Source: Chrysomallon squamiferum (lineage: Eukaryota; Animalia; Mollusca). Taken from it: DNA of 64,000 bases. The DNA lies in the NCBI GenBank assembly GCA_012295275.1, contig CM022677.1, positions 23,312,001 to 23,376,000 of the forward strand. The letters run 5' to 3'. The notes beneath the pieces are model-generated. The model was not told the DNA's origin, ran no database searches, and saw only the letters and a list, made by a program, of their open reading frames with translations. The translations under genes were made by a program, and so were the position numbers. Shown here piece by piece: positions 5,901 to 20,408 of this stretch (positions within the stretch are counted from its first letter, which is position 1; each line of letters begins with the position of its first letter).

Positions 5901-8900
5901 CGAACAGGCGAGGTCCCACATTTCCACACTCCCTGTGGAACTGTTATGATCGTGTTGAAGCTGGTCTACCTCGAACCAATAACAACATTGATGGGTGGCA
6001 TCAACGCGTGGCTGCTTGTGTCAGCTGTCATCATCCAAACATCTGAATATTTCTGGACATTTTGAAGAAGGAACAGAATTCACCAAACAGAATGACTAGA
6101 TCCTAGCAGGAGAATGTCCACCCCCTCAGCTACAGGTATACAGAGATATCGGGCAACGCCTACAAACACTAGTCAGGGACTACCAGAACAAACCCCATCT
6201 CAATTTCCTGCATGGTGTGGCACACAATCTCTAAATGTAAATTTATTATGAAATCTAGGACATATATATAACTGTATATAAATGCATACAAATGTACAAA
6301 AAAGTTAACACGTTCAACATAATTTGCATTTCATTGTTTCATTTACGTTTTCATAATAAAAGATATAATAAAGGAGGGAAATATCCAAGGGGGAAATGAC
6401 TGGGGGAAGTGCCCGAGGGAAAACTATTCGAGAGGGAATTGCCCTGCAACTGTTTTTTTTTTTTTAAAACCTTTCACTTACACTGCTACAGACATATGTG
6501 GTTTTGTATCTCTGTTTCTCTGCATTGTGTTTATGTAACATTCTTATTTATATGTTTAATGTTTTAATTTGTTAAATTGTAGGACATCTCAACAATAGGA
6601 TTACTGAAGCCCACAGTCTGTTTGTGGAAACAAAAGCTTTCAGACATGCTAGAGATGCTCTGGCTGATGTTCAACACTTGATTCTTCTAGATGCGCCAGG
6701 CTGTGGCAAAACAACCATCTCCCTGATGCTGATGAGAAAATACATTAAAAAAAAATATCGTTATTATTTTATTGATTCCTACGATGATTTTAATGTAATA
6801 CATAAAATTGATACTCGTGATAAAAATGTGTTGATTTTTGATGACTTTTTTGGAAAAAGTGGTTTAAAAGATTTTGTAAAATTGTCCAAAACTCTACAAG
6901 ATTTGGACAGTATTAGTAGTAAACTGAATAATTTGAAACATGGTGAGGATTCGCAGCATGATTTAAAAGTGATTTTCACTTCAAGAAACTACATTTTCGC
7001 AATGGCAAAACCACAGCTTGGACAGTACGAACGTACAATTATGAAAGATTCAAATGTAGTTAACTTGTCTGAGTATCCACTTACAGAGACGGAAAGAAAA
7101 CAAATGTTATTAAAGCACTGCCAGTCTGTAAATATTGAAATGAGTGAAGAAAAATTAGGAGACATTGTAAAGAAAACAGAAAACACGATAGGCTTTCCCT
7201 ACAGTTGTAAAATGTTTTCAAAAGTAAACGTTTTCCAGAAAATGCCTGAGTCATATTTTTCAACGCCATTCATCTATCTTAAAGATCATTTGGCAGAGAT
7301 TTTACTGAAAGGGACAGTGCCTGGTCAAGCGTCTGCTTTGGTATTAATGTTTTTACTGGAAGGAAAACTCATGATCAGAGATCTTGATCCCTGGACACGA
7401 AAGGAACCAAAAGTAGAAGAATATATGAACTGTTTATATGCTAATATGACTAAGGAGCCACATGAAATAACTCAAGGTGCCGTGTCTTTGGAAGGTTCAT
7501 TTTTAGAAAGAAACAACCAGACATATGTGTTTACTCATCCAGCAGTCTATGATGCTATAGCTTCTATCATGGGTAAAAAAGATCCCAATTTGATCCTTAA
7601 ACATTGTCAGATGTCATTCATCCTAGAATATGTTCATCTAGAGACGAACAAGTCAGGGATGAACAAAACAGATGATTATGAGTGTTCAGTTACCATACCC
7701 GAAGTACATACAGCAATGATGGTAAAACGTTTTGCTGATGAAATAAAGGAACGTAATTTCAGAGAGACTTTACCACATGATGTTTTCCAGGAAGAAACAT
7801 TTGTTGATGAAGTCATTGGAGAATTGGAAAGTGATGACAGTTTGCCTGATATATTTCACAAGTGTGACAGAACACATGGACACTGTTTTTTATTTTGGGC
7901 CACACTTTACTCGACACCACAAATTGTGAAAACATCACAAGAAACTAATTTTGTTAAACATTTTTTGGTGCAGAAAGCCTGTGAACGTTCTGAGTTTAAT
8001 AACAGCGAACTGCTTGCTGGATTTCTTGGCTGTGCCTTAAGTGGGAACATGAAATCATTTGAAAGAATCATTGAAAATAAGAATAAATCTTCTAACTTAG
8101 AGAACGATAATGTGGCATCAGCAACAGTGGAAGAAATAATAAAAGGAAATTTGTTAAGATCACTTTCAGAGGAAAATGAACAAAATTCACAGTTTGCATT
8201 CTTTGGCAACCAGAGAGATGGCCTACTTCATGTTGCCTGCATTCATGGTTATGCAGACATTGTAAAAGAGTTTCTGAAATTAGGGTGTATTGTGAACGGT
8301 CGGGGAGAGCTTGGCCGAACACCCTTAATGTACGCCAGCAGATATGGACATGAGGATGTTGTAAACATTTTACTAGACTTCGATGCTGATATTAACCTTA
8401 CAGATGACGAAGGAGCAAGTGCACTTCACCTTGCTGCGCGTGGTGGTCACATCAGTGTGATGAAAATGTTCACTGATCATGGAGTTGATATCAATGAGAG
8501 AGGAGAGCACCAGAGAACACCACTGTTGTATGCCTGCAGATATGGATACTATGAGTTTGTAAAGTTTTGTCTTGACAATGGAGGTGACCTCAGCTTGAAA
8601 TGTGATTATGATTCGTGTTTACATCTGGCTTGTATTTCTGGTAGACTTGATACAGTGAAACTTCTGGTGGAGAAGGGAATGGATGTTAATGAACCAGGAC
8701 AGTTTTCTCGTAGCCCTGTAATGTTTGCAATCCGACATGGAAATATTGAAATTGTTGAGTATTTGAAAGAACATGGAGCAGATTTAAATATTGCTGACGA
8801 CAAAGGGGAAACTGCATTTTCTCTTGCAGTAGTTAGTGGAAACGTTGAACTGGCCAAACAGTTCCTTCCAATTGTTGAAGGTCTAGAGAATGTATGTGAC

Positions 8901-10271
8901 AAGGAAGGGCTTACTCCTTTTGAAAAAGCCAGTGCACTGGGTCACACTGACATGATAAAATATTTCATGGACAACAACAGGGAAGTCCTTCCTTTATCTC
9001 GTTGGCTTATTGCTGCATCTTACAAGGGTAGAATGGATATCATCAAACTGTTGGTAAAACAGTGTGATATCAATGAAAAAGGACACAAAGGACGGACTGC
9101 TTTAATCACTGCTTGTCTTGGAGGGCAGGCAGAAACTGCAGAGTTCCTCATTGAAAATGAAGCAGAGGTCAATCTTTGTGATGAATGTGACAATAATTGT
9201 TGGAACTATGCATGCAGTAGCGGTTCAGTAGATTTAGTCAAAGTGCTCCTCAAAAAAGGATTTACACTGAAAACAAGATGTCAAAATGAAAAGACTGCTT
9301 TAATGTGTGCTTGCAGAACAAATTCTTGTGAGCTTTTTGAGTTCCTTCTTGAAGCTGATAAAAAAAGTGTTGAAACATTGGATAAACATGGTTTAAACTG
9401 TCTTCATCACTGCTGCTTTTCAAAAAGTGACTCTCCAGTGTTATTAGAAAAACTGATTGCTCTTGGGTTAGATGTTAACAGCAGAGATGACAGTTTGAAG
9501 ACTCCGGCTATGTACGCTTGTAGAAATGGTCTGACAAAAATTCTTAAATGTCTTATTAAGCATAATGCCAACTTAGAACTAAAAGACAAGAATGATCAGA
9601 ACTGTCTACATTTTGCTTGCTGGACTAAGAGAAGAGATATTGTACAAATTTTGATTGATCATGGGCTGAACATTAACTGCATAGACAACAATAAAACTAC
9701 TCCTTTAATGGTTGCTTCATATAAAGGTAATCCAGCAGTGGCTGAGTTTCTTCTGGAGAACGGGGCTGATGTCAACAAACAAAATAGCTTTGCTCGAAAC
9801 TGTGTACATGAAGCTGCAAAAGAAAGACAGATACCAGTACTTGAAGTCTTCATCAAACATGGTGTTGACATGTACATGGAGGGCAAATATGGAAGGACAC
9901 CATTCTTGTGTGCATGTCAGTACGGAAACACAGATGTTGTAGAGTTTTTTAAAAAACACGATGTTAGGGTATTGGACAGAGATAGCAATGGAGCCAATGG
10001 CCTTCACCTTTGCTGCATGGGAAAGAAAGATACTTCTTCTGTAGCTAGAAAACTGATACACTATGGAATAAATGTCAATGATAGGGACAATAATGGAATG
10101 AGTCCAATTATGTATGCTTGTTTACATGGTAATGAGGTACTTTTTAATTTTTTATATTCAAAAGGAGCTAGCATTCATTTTCAGGATAAACACAGAAGAA
10201 CATGTTTGCAGTTAGCTAGAAGAGGAGGGAACTCACGGATAGAAGCTAAGATTAGAGAATATCTAAACTGA
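2982..10271 (+). CDS. nSTAND3-type STAND NTPase + ~21 ankyrin repeat protein (NLR-like), copy 1, ~1277 aa; coding exons 2982-3057, 4025-4093, 6583-10271
   Basis: GT-AG phase-1 introns join MTDMQKITRPMNALTLGSPNPSPLT / VRSGIASPVTVAGVEDTVASREK / RHLNNRITEAHSLFVETKAF in frame with the 1215-aa ORF; Walker A DAPGCGKTT, Walker B VLIFDDFFG, sensor VIFTSR, FTHP motif; 21 ANK motifs (e.g. GRTPLMYAS, GASALHLAA). The ORF-track start at 6624 is an internal GTG. Confidence 0.85.
4871..6448 (+). mobile_element. Decayed Mutator-like (MULE) DNA transposon with FLYWCH domain, in intron 2 of copy 1
   Basis: C-rich left end (ggcatttccccc...cagtcatttccc...ggatatttcctcc) is inverted to G-rich right end (ggagggaaatatcc...gggaaatgactggggg...gggaattgcc); from ~5440 translates as MASITSTCGKNKIVIDGYIYVKQKDLERGVVS*EC..R*...CKVKV...NEHTHAP (FLYWCH-like); C-terminal FPHSLWNCYDRVEAGLPRTNNNIDGWH is typical of MULE transposases. 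Confidence 0.85.
6583..10271 (+). CDS. Large terminal exon of STAND-ANK gene copy 1
   Basis: Acceptor ttgtag at 6577-6582; uninterrupted ORF to TGA at 10269-10271. Confidence 0.95.
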
Positions 10272-20100: not shown

Positions 20101-20408
20101 TTAGAATATTGGACAGAGATAGCAATGGAGCCAATGGCCTTCACCTTTGCTGCATGGGAAAGAAAGATAATTCTTCTGTAGCTAGAAAACTGATACACTA
20201 TGGAATAAATGTCAATGATAGGGACAATAATGGAATGAGTCCAATTATGTATGCTTGTTTACATGGTAATGAAGTACTTTTTAATTTTTTATATTCAAAA
20301 GGAGCTAGCATTCATTTTCAGGATAAACGCAGAAGAACATGTTTGGAGTTAGCTAGAAGTGGAGGGAACTCACGGATAGAAGCTAAGATTAGAGAATATC
20401 TAAACTGA
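14198..20408 (+). CDS. nSTAND3-type STAND NTPase + ~21 ankyrin repeat protein, copy 2, ~1277 aa; coding exons 14198-14273, 15043-15111, 16720-20408
   Basis: Same exon sizes, phases and splice sites as copy 1; ~50 aa differences in the 1215-aa ORF (manual count); no stops or frameshifts. Confidence 0.85.
15553..16588 (+). mobile_element. Decayed MULE transposon, intron 2 of copy 2 (left end deleted)
   Basis: FPDVNVHGCLYHLAHYVCRRMQTSGLQQRY (MULE GCxxH motif), PRTNNNIDGWH..HPNI, FLYWCH-like DGYIY..SYEC; stops and deletions. Confidence 0.85.
16720..20408 (+). CDS. Large terminal exon of STAND-ANK gene copy 2
   Basis: Acceptor ttgtag ending 16719; ORF to TGA at 20406-20408. Confidence 0.95.

What the first reader, a model, noticed from the sequence alone, without database searches (positions are those of the whole stretch)
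8214..20408. Twin NLR-like STAND-ankyrin paralogues differ preferentially at ankyrin ligand-binding positions
Seen (manual comparison): ~50 aa changes against only ~20 synonymous changes in the large exon, several being multi-nucleotide codon changes. About 13 of ~33 ankyrin-region changes fall at the six variable 'x' positions of xDxxGxTPLHLAAxxG, e.g. EPGQF>ERGTF, DKG>DRG, EGLTP>EGTTP, NEKTA>NEITA, ACRT>ACRK, AAKE>AAKG, ACQY>ACQQ, ACSS>ACNS, LARR>LARS; ~6 would be expected if uniform. Established: these beta-turn/helix-1 positions form the binding surface randomised in DARPins, and STAND NTPase + repeat proteins act as innate sensors in fungi, plants, animals and bacteria. Inference: a recently duplicated invertebrate intracellular receptor pair diversifying its specificity.
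Basis: partly seen in the sequence, partly recalled or inferred. Interest (0 to 1): 0.8.

Follow-up and report, generated by a model that had tools for sequence, protein, structure and literature searches.

The report
Twin snail STAND-ankyrin sensor genes
Two neighbouring copies of a gene, likely from a snail, encode a nucleotide-switch protein with 21 ankyrin repeats and differ about twice as often as expected at the repeat positions that usually grip a partner, which likely reflects a sensor retuning what it recognises, although relaxed constraint is not ruled out.

Summary
An ~11 kb head-to-tail duplication carries two intact nSTAND3-ankyrin genes (1,277 aa, 21 repeats). Their big exons differ at 50 amino-acid and 21 synonymous codons; 13 of 33 ankyrin changes fall on the six binding-face positions (5.8 expected, p=0.003). 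The excess survives register shifts, an orthologue-based null and comparison with five abalone pairs (33 of 211), so it is not generic exposure. Other runs show third residues at three of these codons. Positive selection is not proven. The binding-face rate is 2.2-2.3 times the exon's synonymous rate but only 1.25 times flanking non-coding divergence. Only 2 of 8 new changes in other runs hit binding-face sites. Copy A is spliced in RNA; a whole copy-B transcript was not seen. It is not a canonical NLR: no NACHT or NB-ARC domain, no N-terminal effector domain, and Asp replaces the first P-loop Gly. It belongs to a large mollusc nSTAND3-ankyrin family related to bacterial Avs5, which my paper searches did not find described in animals. 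Best reading (0.5): a polymorphic, effector-less STAND sensor under diversifying selection at a few groove residues. No ligand or immune role is shown.

The parts
692..12087 (+). Duplicated unit A (about 11.4 kb)
   Evidence: self-BLAST
12080..22037 (+). Duplicated unit B (about 10 kb), head-to-tail after A; clean junction near 12080 with a 2-base overlap and no N
2900..3057 (+). Copy A first coding exon; first in-frame ATG at 2982, in-frame stop upstream in the same exon; an upstream non-coding exon probably ends at 2440
   Evidence: splice joint 3057>4025 in contigs of X7, X8, X1 and a loose end at 2898 in X7
4025..4093 (+). Copy A small exon (23 codons); resembles the pre-NTPase stretch of the Gigantopelta homologue
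   Evidence: splice joint 4093>6583 in X7, X8, X1
6583..10271 (+). Copy A large exon: nSTAND3, helical linker, 21 ankyrin repeats, stop
6621..7124 (+). nSTAND3 NTPase domain of A; P-loop D-A-P-G-C-G-K-T at 6690-6713 (Asp for the first Gly); Walker B and the conserved Arg intact
7821..8600 (+). Near-identical tract between copies (codons 416-675: linker and repeats 1-4; 2 differences in 780 nt)
8205..10268 (+). Ankyrin array of A, 21 repeats; binding-face differences at codons starting 8694, 8700, 8802, 8910, 9216, 9291, 9318, 9591, 9822, 9885, 9921, 10191, 10221
4870..6460 (+). Decayed FLYWCH/Mutator-like transposon remnant in intron 2 of A with inverted-repeat-like ends; broken by stops and frameshifts; present in both copies
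   Evidence: (FLYWCH E 0.006 and 8e-5, below Pfam's cut-off)
14116..14273 (+). Copy B first coding exon (ATG 14198); splice sites intact, predicted by homology to A
15043..15111 (+). Copy B small exon, predicted by homology to A
16720..20408 (+). Copy B large exon: nSTAND3 (16758-17261), linker, 21 ankyrin repeats (18342-20405), stop

Best explanation
The window holds a real tandem pair of intact genes for a 1,277-residue nSTAND3 NTPase with 21 ankyrin repeats and no N-terminal effector domain, likely an intracellular sensor whose ligand-binding groove is likely under diversifying or balancing selection at a handful of residues. Inferred mechanism, by analogy with Avs5 and Apaf-1: the conserved proximal repeats (1-4/5) and linker would hold the NTPase shut. 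The variable distal repeats (6-21) would bind a changing ligand on the hairpin/helix-1 face. Binding would free the NTPase to oligomerise and signal through a separate partner, since the protein carries no effector of its own. The locus appears multi-allelic: A and B are two of several haplotypes, and exchange between copies likely keeps the exon more alike than its introns while groove residues stay different. Shown: gene structure, splicing of A, domain content, the positional excess and third residues in other runs. Inferred: sensing, oligomerisation, selection and gene conversion.
For: Positional excess: 13 of 33 at binding-face sites, p=0.0026. It is 12 of 33 with the published mask 2,3,5,10,13,33 (p=0.008) and 11 of 27 after collapsing clustered changes (p=0.004); only 1 of 33 register shifts reaches 13. 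Orthologue-weighted null: expected share 0.21-0.22, p=0.011-0.016. Five close abalone pairs put 33 of 211 changes at these sites and 66 on the outer helix; A/B puts 11 and 6 of 24 (Fisher p=0.001 for the share, 0.015 for groove versus outer helix). Framework sites stay constrained (pN 0.011) while groove sites reach pN 0.059 against exon pS 0.025. Two-base groove codons resolve into single steps: other runs carry Ile at 779, Met at 906 (the state in all five outgroups) and Glu at 709. So 779 and 906 each changed amino acid twice. Both frames and all splice sites are intact; a spliced contig matches A at all 45 diagnostic sites it covers. B-type letters at codons 760-788 and 860-862 occur in RNA run X7. 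The NTPase model's best structural matches are Avs5, Apaf-1 and NLRP2. Abalone ankyrin arrays lie in duplicated, haplotype-variable regions and have been linked to defence (PMC12627906, passages).
Against: Synonymous divergence (20 of 794 sites, 2.5%) is below non-coding divergence (195 of 4150, 4.7%; p=0.004). Against the latter, groove sites give only 1.25 (p=0.22), which is compatible with neutrality. Counting two-base codons once gives p=0.07. Adding the haplotypes gives a ratio of 2.1 but p=0.06. Of 8 new amino-acid changes in other runs that are not mere splits of an A/B difference, 2 are at groove sites (p=0.42). Within the pair, groove versus outer helix is not significant (11 of 99 vs 6 of 120, p=0.08). 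Over long times groove sites are barely more variable than others (rate ratio 1.2-1.3), and abalone relatives show no excess, so this is not a family-wide trait. Two of the 13 changes are Lys/Arg. B's Arg707, Thr709, Arg743, Asn881 and Ile906 were seen in none of the 4 runs laid. The pair was picked from a very large scan, so p near 0.003 is open to selection bias. The P-loop Asp may weaken nucleotide binding. Structural matches have low TM-scores (0.26-0.36).
Confidence: 0.5

Rival explanations
1. Relaxed constraint plus chance: after duplication (perhaps with B weakly expressed), surface residues drift at about the neutral rate, and the groove excess is a lucky draw picked out of a large scan.
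For: Whole-exon pN/pS is 0.80 and the NTPase alone gives 1.07. Groove pN (5.9%) matches non-coding divergence (4.7%). New variants are not enriched. No full B transcript was seen. Relatives show no excess.
Against: Framework sites stay at pN 0.011. In relatives, drift fills the outer helix first, the reverse of this pair. Repeat hits at codons 709, 779 and 906. Six double-hit codons against about 1.1 expected if changes were uniform (p=0.0009, but p=0.06 if only 40% of codons can vary).
Confidence: 0.33
2. A non-immune scaffold or regulator with a weakened NTPase, whose groove co-evolves with an endogenous partner or is being sub-functionalised between the copies.
For: No effector domain. Asp for the first P-loop Gly is shared only with the Gigantopelta homologue among full matches; 151 of 159 aligned segments have Gly. 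Groove residues of repeats 2-4 and 6 are conserved across species.
Against: The catalytic Lys/Thr, Walker B and Arg are intact. The family is large and lineage-expanded (1019 clusters; several abalone copies on one contig), unlike fish ankyrin-1 pairs, which differ at 1-3 of 607 ankyrin residues.
Confidence: 0.1
3. The pair is an assembly artefact: two alleles of one gene placed in tandem, or an exon homogenised by polishing.
For: Most runs give one main contig over the exon, mostly A-like, and several B letters were not seen elsewhere.
Against: Clean head-to-tail junction with no N. Introns differ by 3-5% plus large indels. DNA run X2, from a different study than X1, holds both intron-2 forms. 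Several B residues equal the outgroup state (Arg743, Ser813, Ser860).
Confidence: 0.07

Closest known systems
Mollusc nSTAND3-ankyrin proteins (Gigantopelta aegis XP_041355510 / LOC121373125; Haliotis proteins named 'PP6 regulatory ankyrin repeat subunit-like'; Mytilus forms with DZIP3-type HEPN, PF18738)
   Same: nSTAND3 plus long ankyrin array. The Gigantopelta protein is 49% identical over the first 560 residues and 58% over the ankyrins, keeps the same repeat register and has the same P-loop Asp.
   Different: Only about 48 residues precede the NTPase region here; the Mytilus forms carry HEPN and some abalone forms a predicted membrane helix. The abalone close pairs show no groove excess.
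Bacterial Avs5 (Sir2-nSTAND3-repeat anti-phage sensor; bioRxiv 10.1101/2025.07.08.663546)
   Same: Same NTPase family (PF20720) followed by helical repeats; top structural match (9jap, E 1.6e-6).
   Different: No Sir2 or other effector; ankyrin instead of TPR/Sel1/PPR repeats; atypical first P-loop residue; animal gene with introns.
Fungal NLRs with hypervariable repeats (Podospora HNWD and NACHT-ANK; PMC13449251)
   Same: STAND plus repeats, with change concentrated at a few ligand-facing positions and signs of exchange between genes.
   Different: nSTAND3 rather than NACHT. The repeats are not internally conserved (mean identity 23%, maximum 48%). No repeat-number change was seen. No effector domain.
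Bivalve NACHT / DZIP3-HEPN immune expansions (PMC9646362)
   Same: Tandem, haplotype-variable STAND genes in molluscs, proposed as pathogen sensors.
   Different: Different NTPase clade, ankyrin sensor, no HEPN or death domain.
DARPins (designed ankyrin repeat proteins)
   Same: The varying positions coincide with those randomised on the concave face (PMC4308713 lists 2,3,5,10,13,33; PMC8229355 places binding on the concave face).
   Different: Natural 21-repeat array; only 13 of 121 such residues differ between the copies.

Membership tests
nSTAND3 NTPases (PF20720) | Profile match above the curated cut-off | tested here: met
   106 bits vs cut-off 27.2, profile positions 1-154 of 155, both copies
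nSTAND3 NTPases (PF20720) | Canonical Walker A GxxxxGK[T/S] | tested here: inconclusive
   D-A-P-G-C-G-K-T: GKT intact, first Gly is Asp; 151 of 159 aligned family segments have Gly
nSTAND3 NTPases (PF20720) | Walker B (hhhhDD) and downstream conserved Arg | tested here: met
   VLIFDDFFG and TSR match the family majority
NLR (tripartite NOD-like receptor) | NACHT or NB-ARC NTPase | tested here: not met
   No PF05729 or PF00931 hit at E<=0.1; the domain is nSTAND3
NLR (tripartite NOD-like receptor) | N-terminal effector domain (death fold, TIR, CC, HEPN, amyloid motif) | tested here: not met
   About 48 residues before the large exon, in-frame stop upstream, splicing seen in contigs; no Pfam hit at E<=10 on the small exons, RHIM included. 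Alternative first exons were not excluded.
NLR (tripartite NOD-like receptor) | C-terminal superstructure-forming repeats | tested here: met
   21 ankyrin repeats
NLR (tripartite NOD-like receptor) | Ligand-triggered nucleotide exchange and oligomerisation | not testable with these tools
   needs biochemistry
Fungal high-internal-conservation NLRs (HNWD type) | Near-identical repeats within one gene | tested here: not met
   mean pairwise repeat identity 0.23, maximum 0.48
Fungal high-internal-conservation NLRs (HNWD type) | Ligand-facing positions under diversifying selection | tested here: inconclusive
   ratio 2.2-2.3 against exon synonymous sites, 1.25 against non-coding DNA; new variants 2 of 8
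Avs5 anti-phage system | N-terminal Sir2 effector | tested here: not met
   no such domain

The most novel reading that the evidence does not exclude
Mollusc nSTAND3-ankyrin proteins are an unrecognised class of Avs5-related intracellular receptors whose ankyrin grooves act as natural DARPin libraries. This locus holds a balanced, multi-allelic groove polymorphism shuffled among tandem copies, read out by an effector-less sensor that signals through a partner.
Probability: 0.25. Interest if true: 0.7.

Novelty: new member of a known kind. Interest (0 to 1): 0.4.

Why it matters
Molluscs carry many nSTAND3-ankyrin genes, and databases name the abalone ones after phosphatase subunits. If the groove excess is selection, this locus gives a concrete, mappable test that the family is a variable receptor repertoire linked to bacterial Avs5, and it names 13 residues to examine. 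The general pattern, a STAND sensor diversifying on its repeat surface, is already known from fungi (PMC13449251) and plants (recalled). The advance would be a new family and a new animal group, not a new principle.

Tried and rejected
Further copies in the window: tblastn found none outside the two exons. No whole genome was available, so other paralogues of this species could not be collected; loose ends at 8163 in X7 and X8 hint at one. Multi-base mutation as the cause of the excess: weakened, because 779 and 906 split into single steps; 709 still needs two steps to reach B's Thr. Gene conversion as proven: not claimed. The tract at codons 416-675 has 2 of 78 differences (p=1e-5 if uniform), but it overlaps the best-conserved repeats. 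A/B mosaics in long contigs may come from the assembler choosing branches, so only variants within a few dozen bases were trusted. Copy number from contig depth (about 3:1 B-type to A-type intron in X2): not evidence. Parts of the gene without contig cover (X1 and X2 stop near 9030-9220): not read as absence. Pairs too close to test: P0002/P0122 (1 ankyrin change, at a groove site) and P0005/P0124 (0 of 3); P0017/P0141 had no aligned ankyrins. Rfam: 0 matches in the window. The protein atlas gave no result. Codon site models were not run: two full sequences are too few. No complex prediction was run, as no partner is proposed.
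Full report
Numbering: codon 1 = window 6576 (copy A) or 16713 (copy B). 'Groove' means ankyrin positions 2, 3, 5, 13, 14 and 33.

1. What is there. Two stop-to-stop frames of 1231 codons lie at 6576-10271 and 16713-20408. Self-BLAST shows a head-to-tail duplication, 692-12087 and 12080-22037, with a clean junction, a 2-base overlap and no N. Both frames give nSTAND3 (E 1.7e-30 and 1.9e-30) and ankyrin repeats; no NACHT or NB-ARC hit appears at E<=0.1. 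Two small upstream exons join in frame to give 1,277 residues. Contigs of 3 of the 4 runs laid (X7, X8, X1) show the GT-AG joints 3057>4025 and 4093>6583; the fourth (X2) shows none. An in-frame stop precedes the first ATG (2982) in the same exon, so only about 48 residues precede the large exon. These have no Pfam match at E<=10. The nearest named relative is Gigantopelta aegis LOC121373125 (49% over residues 1-560, 58% over the ankyrins), so the host is likely a snail.

2. The observation. The exons differ at 50 amino-acid and 21 synonymous codons, 8 of them at two bases; one 'synonymous' codon is the split Arg/Ser codon. Of 33 changes in the 688 ankyrin residues, 13 are groove (121 residues, 5.8 expected, p=0.0026). 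The register is backed by an HMM (608 of 609 assigned residues agree) and by an AlphaFold model (7-sequence alignment, pLDDT 91.6). Robustness: 1 of 33 shifted masks reaches 13; the published alternative mask gives 12 of 33 (p=0.008); collapsing neighbouring changes gives 11 of 27 (p=0.004).

3. Is it just exposure? Against two orthologue-like proteins, groove sites change only 1.2-1.3 times as fast as others; the expected share becomes 0.21-0.22 and p=0.011-0.016. Five close Haliotis pairs (91-96% identical; four nSTAND3-ankyrin, one ankyrin-only) have 33 of 211 changes in the groove and 66 on the outer helix. A/B, under the same HMM register, has 11 and 6 of 24 (p=0.001 and 0.015). Three further abalone pairs left out of the pool as non-independent also show no excess (7 of 53, 6 of 81, 7 of 62). 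So the excess is particular to this pair. That argues against exposure, and equally against a family-wide habit. Within the pair alone, groove versus outer helix is p=0.08.

4. Is it positive selection? pN is 0.059 in the groove (17 of 289 sites), 0.029 on the outer helix and 0.011 in the framework; exon pS is 0.025 (20 of 794). The groove ratio is 2.2-2.3 (p=0.008-0.024). But strictly aligned non-coding DNA differs at 4.7% (195 of 4150), significantly above pS (p=0.004). Against it the groove ratio is 1.25 (p=0.22). Counting two-base codons once gives p=0.07. Linked synonymous sites are the better yardstick if the exon has been homogenised by exchange, which the low pS and the 780-base tract with 2 differences suggest but do not prove.

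5. Other runs. On B 18790-19620, four runs from three studies gave 38 variant rows, none cut. Third residues appear at groove codons 709 (Glu, X6), 779 (Ile, X6) and 906 (Met, X7 and X9). At outer position 1062, X7 has His. Met906 is the state in all 5 outgroup rows, so A (Lys) and B (Ile) each changed it. His at 1116 in Gigantopelta would likewise lie one step from both Tyr and Gln (inference). Against this, only 2 of 8 new changes that are not mere splits of an A/B difference lie in the groove (709 Glu, 868 Ser; the others are at 810, 912, 917, 924, 1027, 1073; p=0.42). One search showed 40 of 150 rows, so variants beyond codon 969 are incompletely seen. Pooling all haplotypes over codons 693-969 gives 12 groove, 16 other and 10 synonymous changes: ratio 2.1, p=0.06. 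A spliced contig in X1 equals A at all 45 diagnostic sites covered. B-type letters occur in RNA only in pieces (codons 760-788 and 860-862 in X7; 402-415). B's Arg707, Thr709, Tyr717, Arg743, Asn881 and Ile906 were in none of the 4 runs; contigs drop rare variants, so this is not absence. The picture is a polymorphic locus with several haplotypes, of which A and B are two.

6. The NTPase. The P-loop is D-A-P-G-C-G-K-T. Among 159 aligned segments from 152 family proteins, 151 have Gly first, and the only other full P-loop with Asp is the Gigantopelta protein; Lys, Thr, Walker B and the later Arg are intact. A model of residues 1-544 (pLDDT 79) matches Avs5 best (E 1.6e-6), then Apaf-1, NLRP2 and SAMD9, with low TM-scores of 0.26-0.36. 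The family is large: 1019 clusters at E<=0.001. Of 30 scanned from the top of the 150 listed, 24 have nSTAND3 plus ankyrins, and none shows a death, TIR or HEPN domain at E<=1e-8. Two Mytilus hits do list HEPN.

7. How it likely works. By analogy with Avs5, where the repeats are predicted to fold back on the ATPase and the P-loop is needed for immunity (bioRxiv 10.1101/2025.07.08.663546, passages), the proximal repeats would restrain the switch and the distal groove would read a ligand. Repeats 1-4 differ by one residue between copies and repeats 3-5 are the most conserved across species; all 13 groove changes lie from the end of repeat 5 onward. Having no effector, the protein would signal through a partner. 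All of this paragraph is inference. I give the diversifying-sensor reading 0.5, relaxed constraint plus chance 0.33, a non-immune scaffold 0.1 and an artefact 0.07.

8. What is known. Hypervariable ligand positions and repeat exchange are known in fungal NLRs (PMC13449251: abstract, outline, passages). Haplotype-variable NACHT/HEPN arrays are known in pearl oyster (PMC9646362, passages), and ankyrin-rich duplicated regions linked to defence in abalone (PMC12627906, passages). PMC8195603, PMC3710099 and PMC8229355 were seen as passages only. 'nSTAND3' occurs in 5 held papers; the 4 listed concern Avs5, fungal NLRs and a mosquito virus. Searches (listings) returned no paper on animal nSTAND3-ankyrin proteins. 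The library lacks most subscription papers, and no supplements were read, so this is weak evidence of novelty. It fails the strict NLR test (no NACHT/NB-ARC, no effector) but may work like one. An earlier, unreviewed note on this genome describes another STAND-ankyrin gene with a RHIM exon; the motif was not found here.

9. Verdict. A real and carefully seen pattern of modest statistical weight, in a new member of a known kind of system. Interest 0.4.

Noticed in passing
window 4870-6460 and 15552-16600: Decayed FLYWCH/Mutator-like transposon in intron 2 of both copies, with inverted-repeat-like ends in A; the left end is deleted in B, so the insertion predates the duplication.
   Followed up: partly
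window 6690-6713 and 16827-16850: Asp replaces the first Gly of the P-loop in both copies and in the Gigantopelta homologue, but in no other full P-loop among the family proteins aligned; an old, lineage-specific change of unknown effect.
   Followed up: partly
proteins P0014, P0015, P0044 (Haliotis): These nSTAND3-ankyrin proteins have a Cys-rich stretch and a hydrophobic, membrane-like helix before the NTPase, suggesting membrane-anchored receptor forms of the family.
   Followed up: no
proteins P0148, P0156, P0162 (unnamed): Short Asn/Gly/Val-rich stretches just before the NTPase look like amyloid signalling motifs (seen by eye; resemblance recalled, not tested).
   Followed up: no
window 8163 (runs X7, X8): Contigs that fit from 8163 onward but have unrelated sequence before it; probably another, more distant ankyrin gene of this species.
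   Followed up: no
window 6645-6657: Three further amino-acid variants (codons 24, 26, 28) just before the NTPase in other runs, showing high protein polymorphism outside the ankyrins too.
   Followed up: partly
window 9153-9161 / 19290-19298: Four base changes in 8 bases turn Glu-Asn-Glu into Ser-His-Gly (codons 860-862); the B form sits on an otherwise A-type contig in X7, a possible short conversion tract.
   Followed up: partly
window 55696-58400: Three tandem copies of a 783-base unit at 91-99% identity, with diverged relatives near 43690.
   Followed up: no
window 30076-30537 and 49990-50450: A 460-base inverted repeat pair, 92% alike, about 19.5 kb apart; probably dispersed transposon copies.
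   Followed up: no
window 33260-34455: 25-base minisatellite that produces three long spurious frames on the minus strand; the one frame scanned had no Pfam match.
   Followed up: partly
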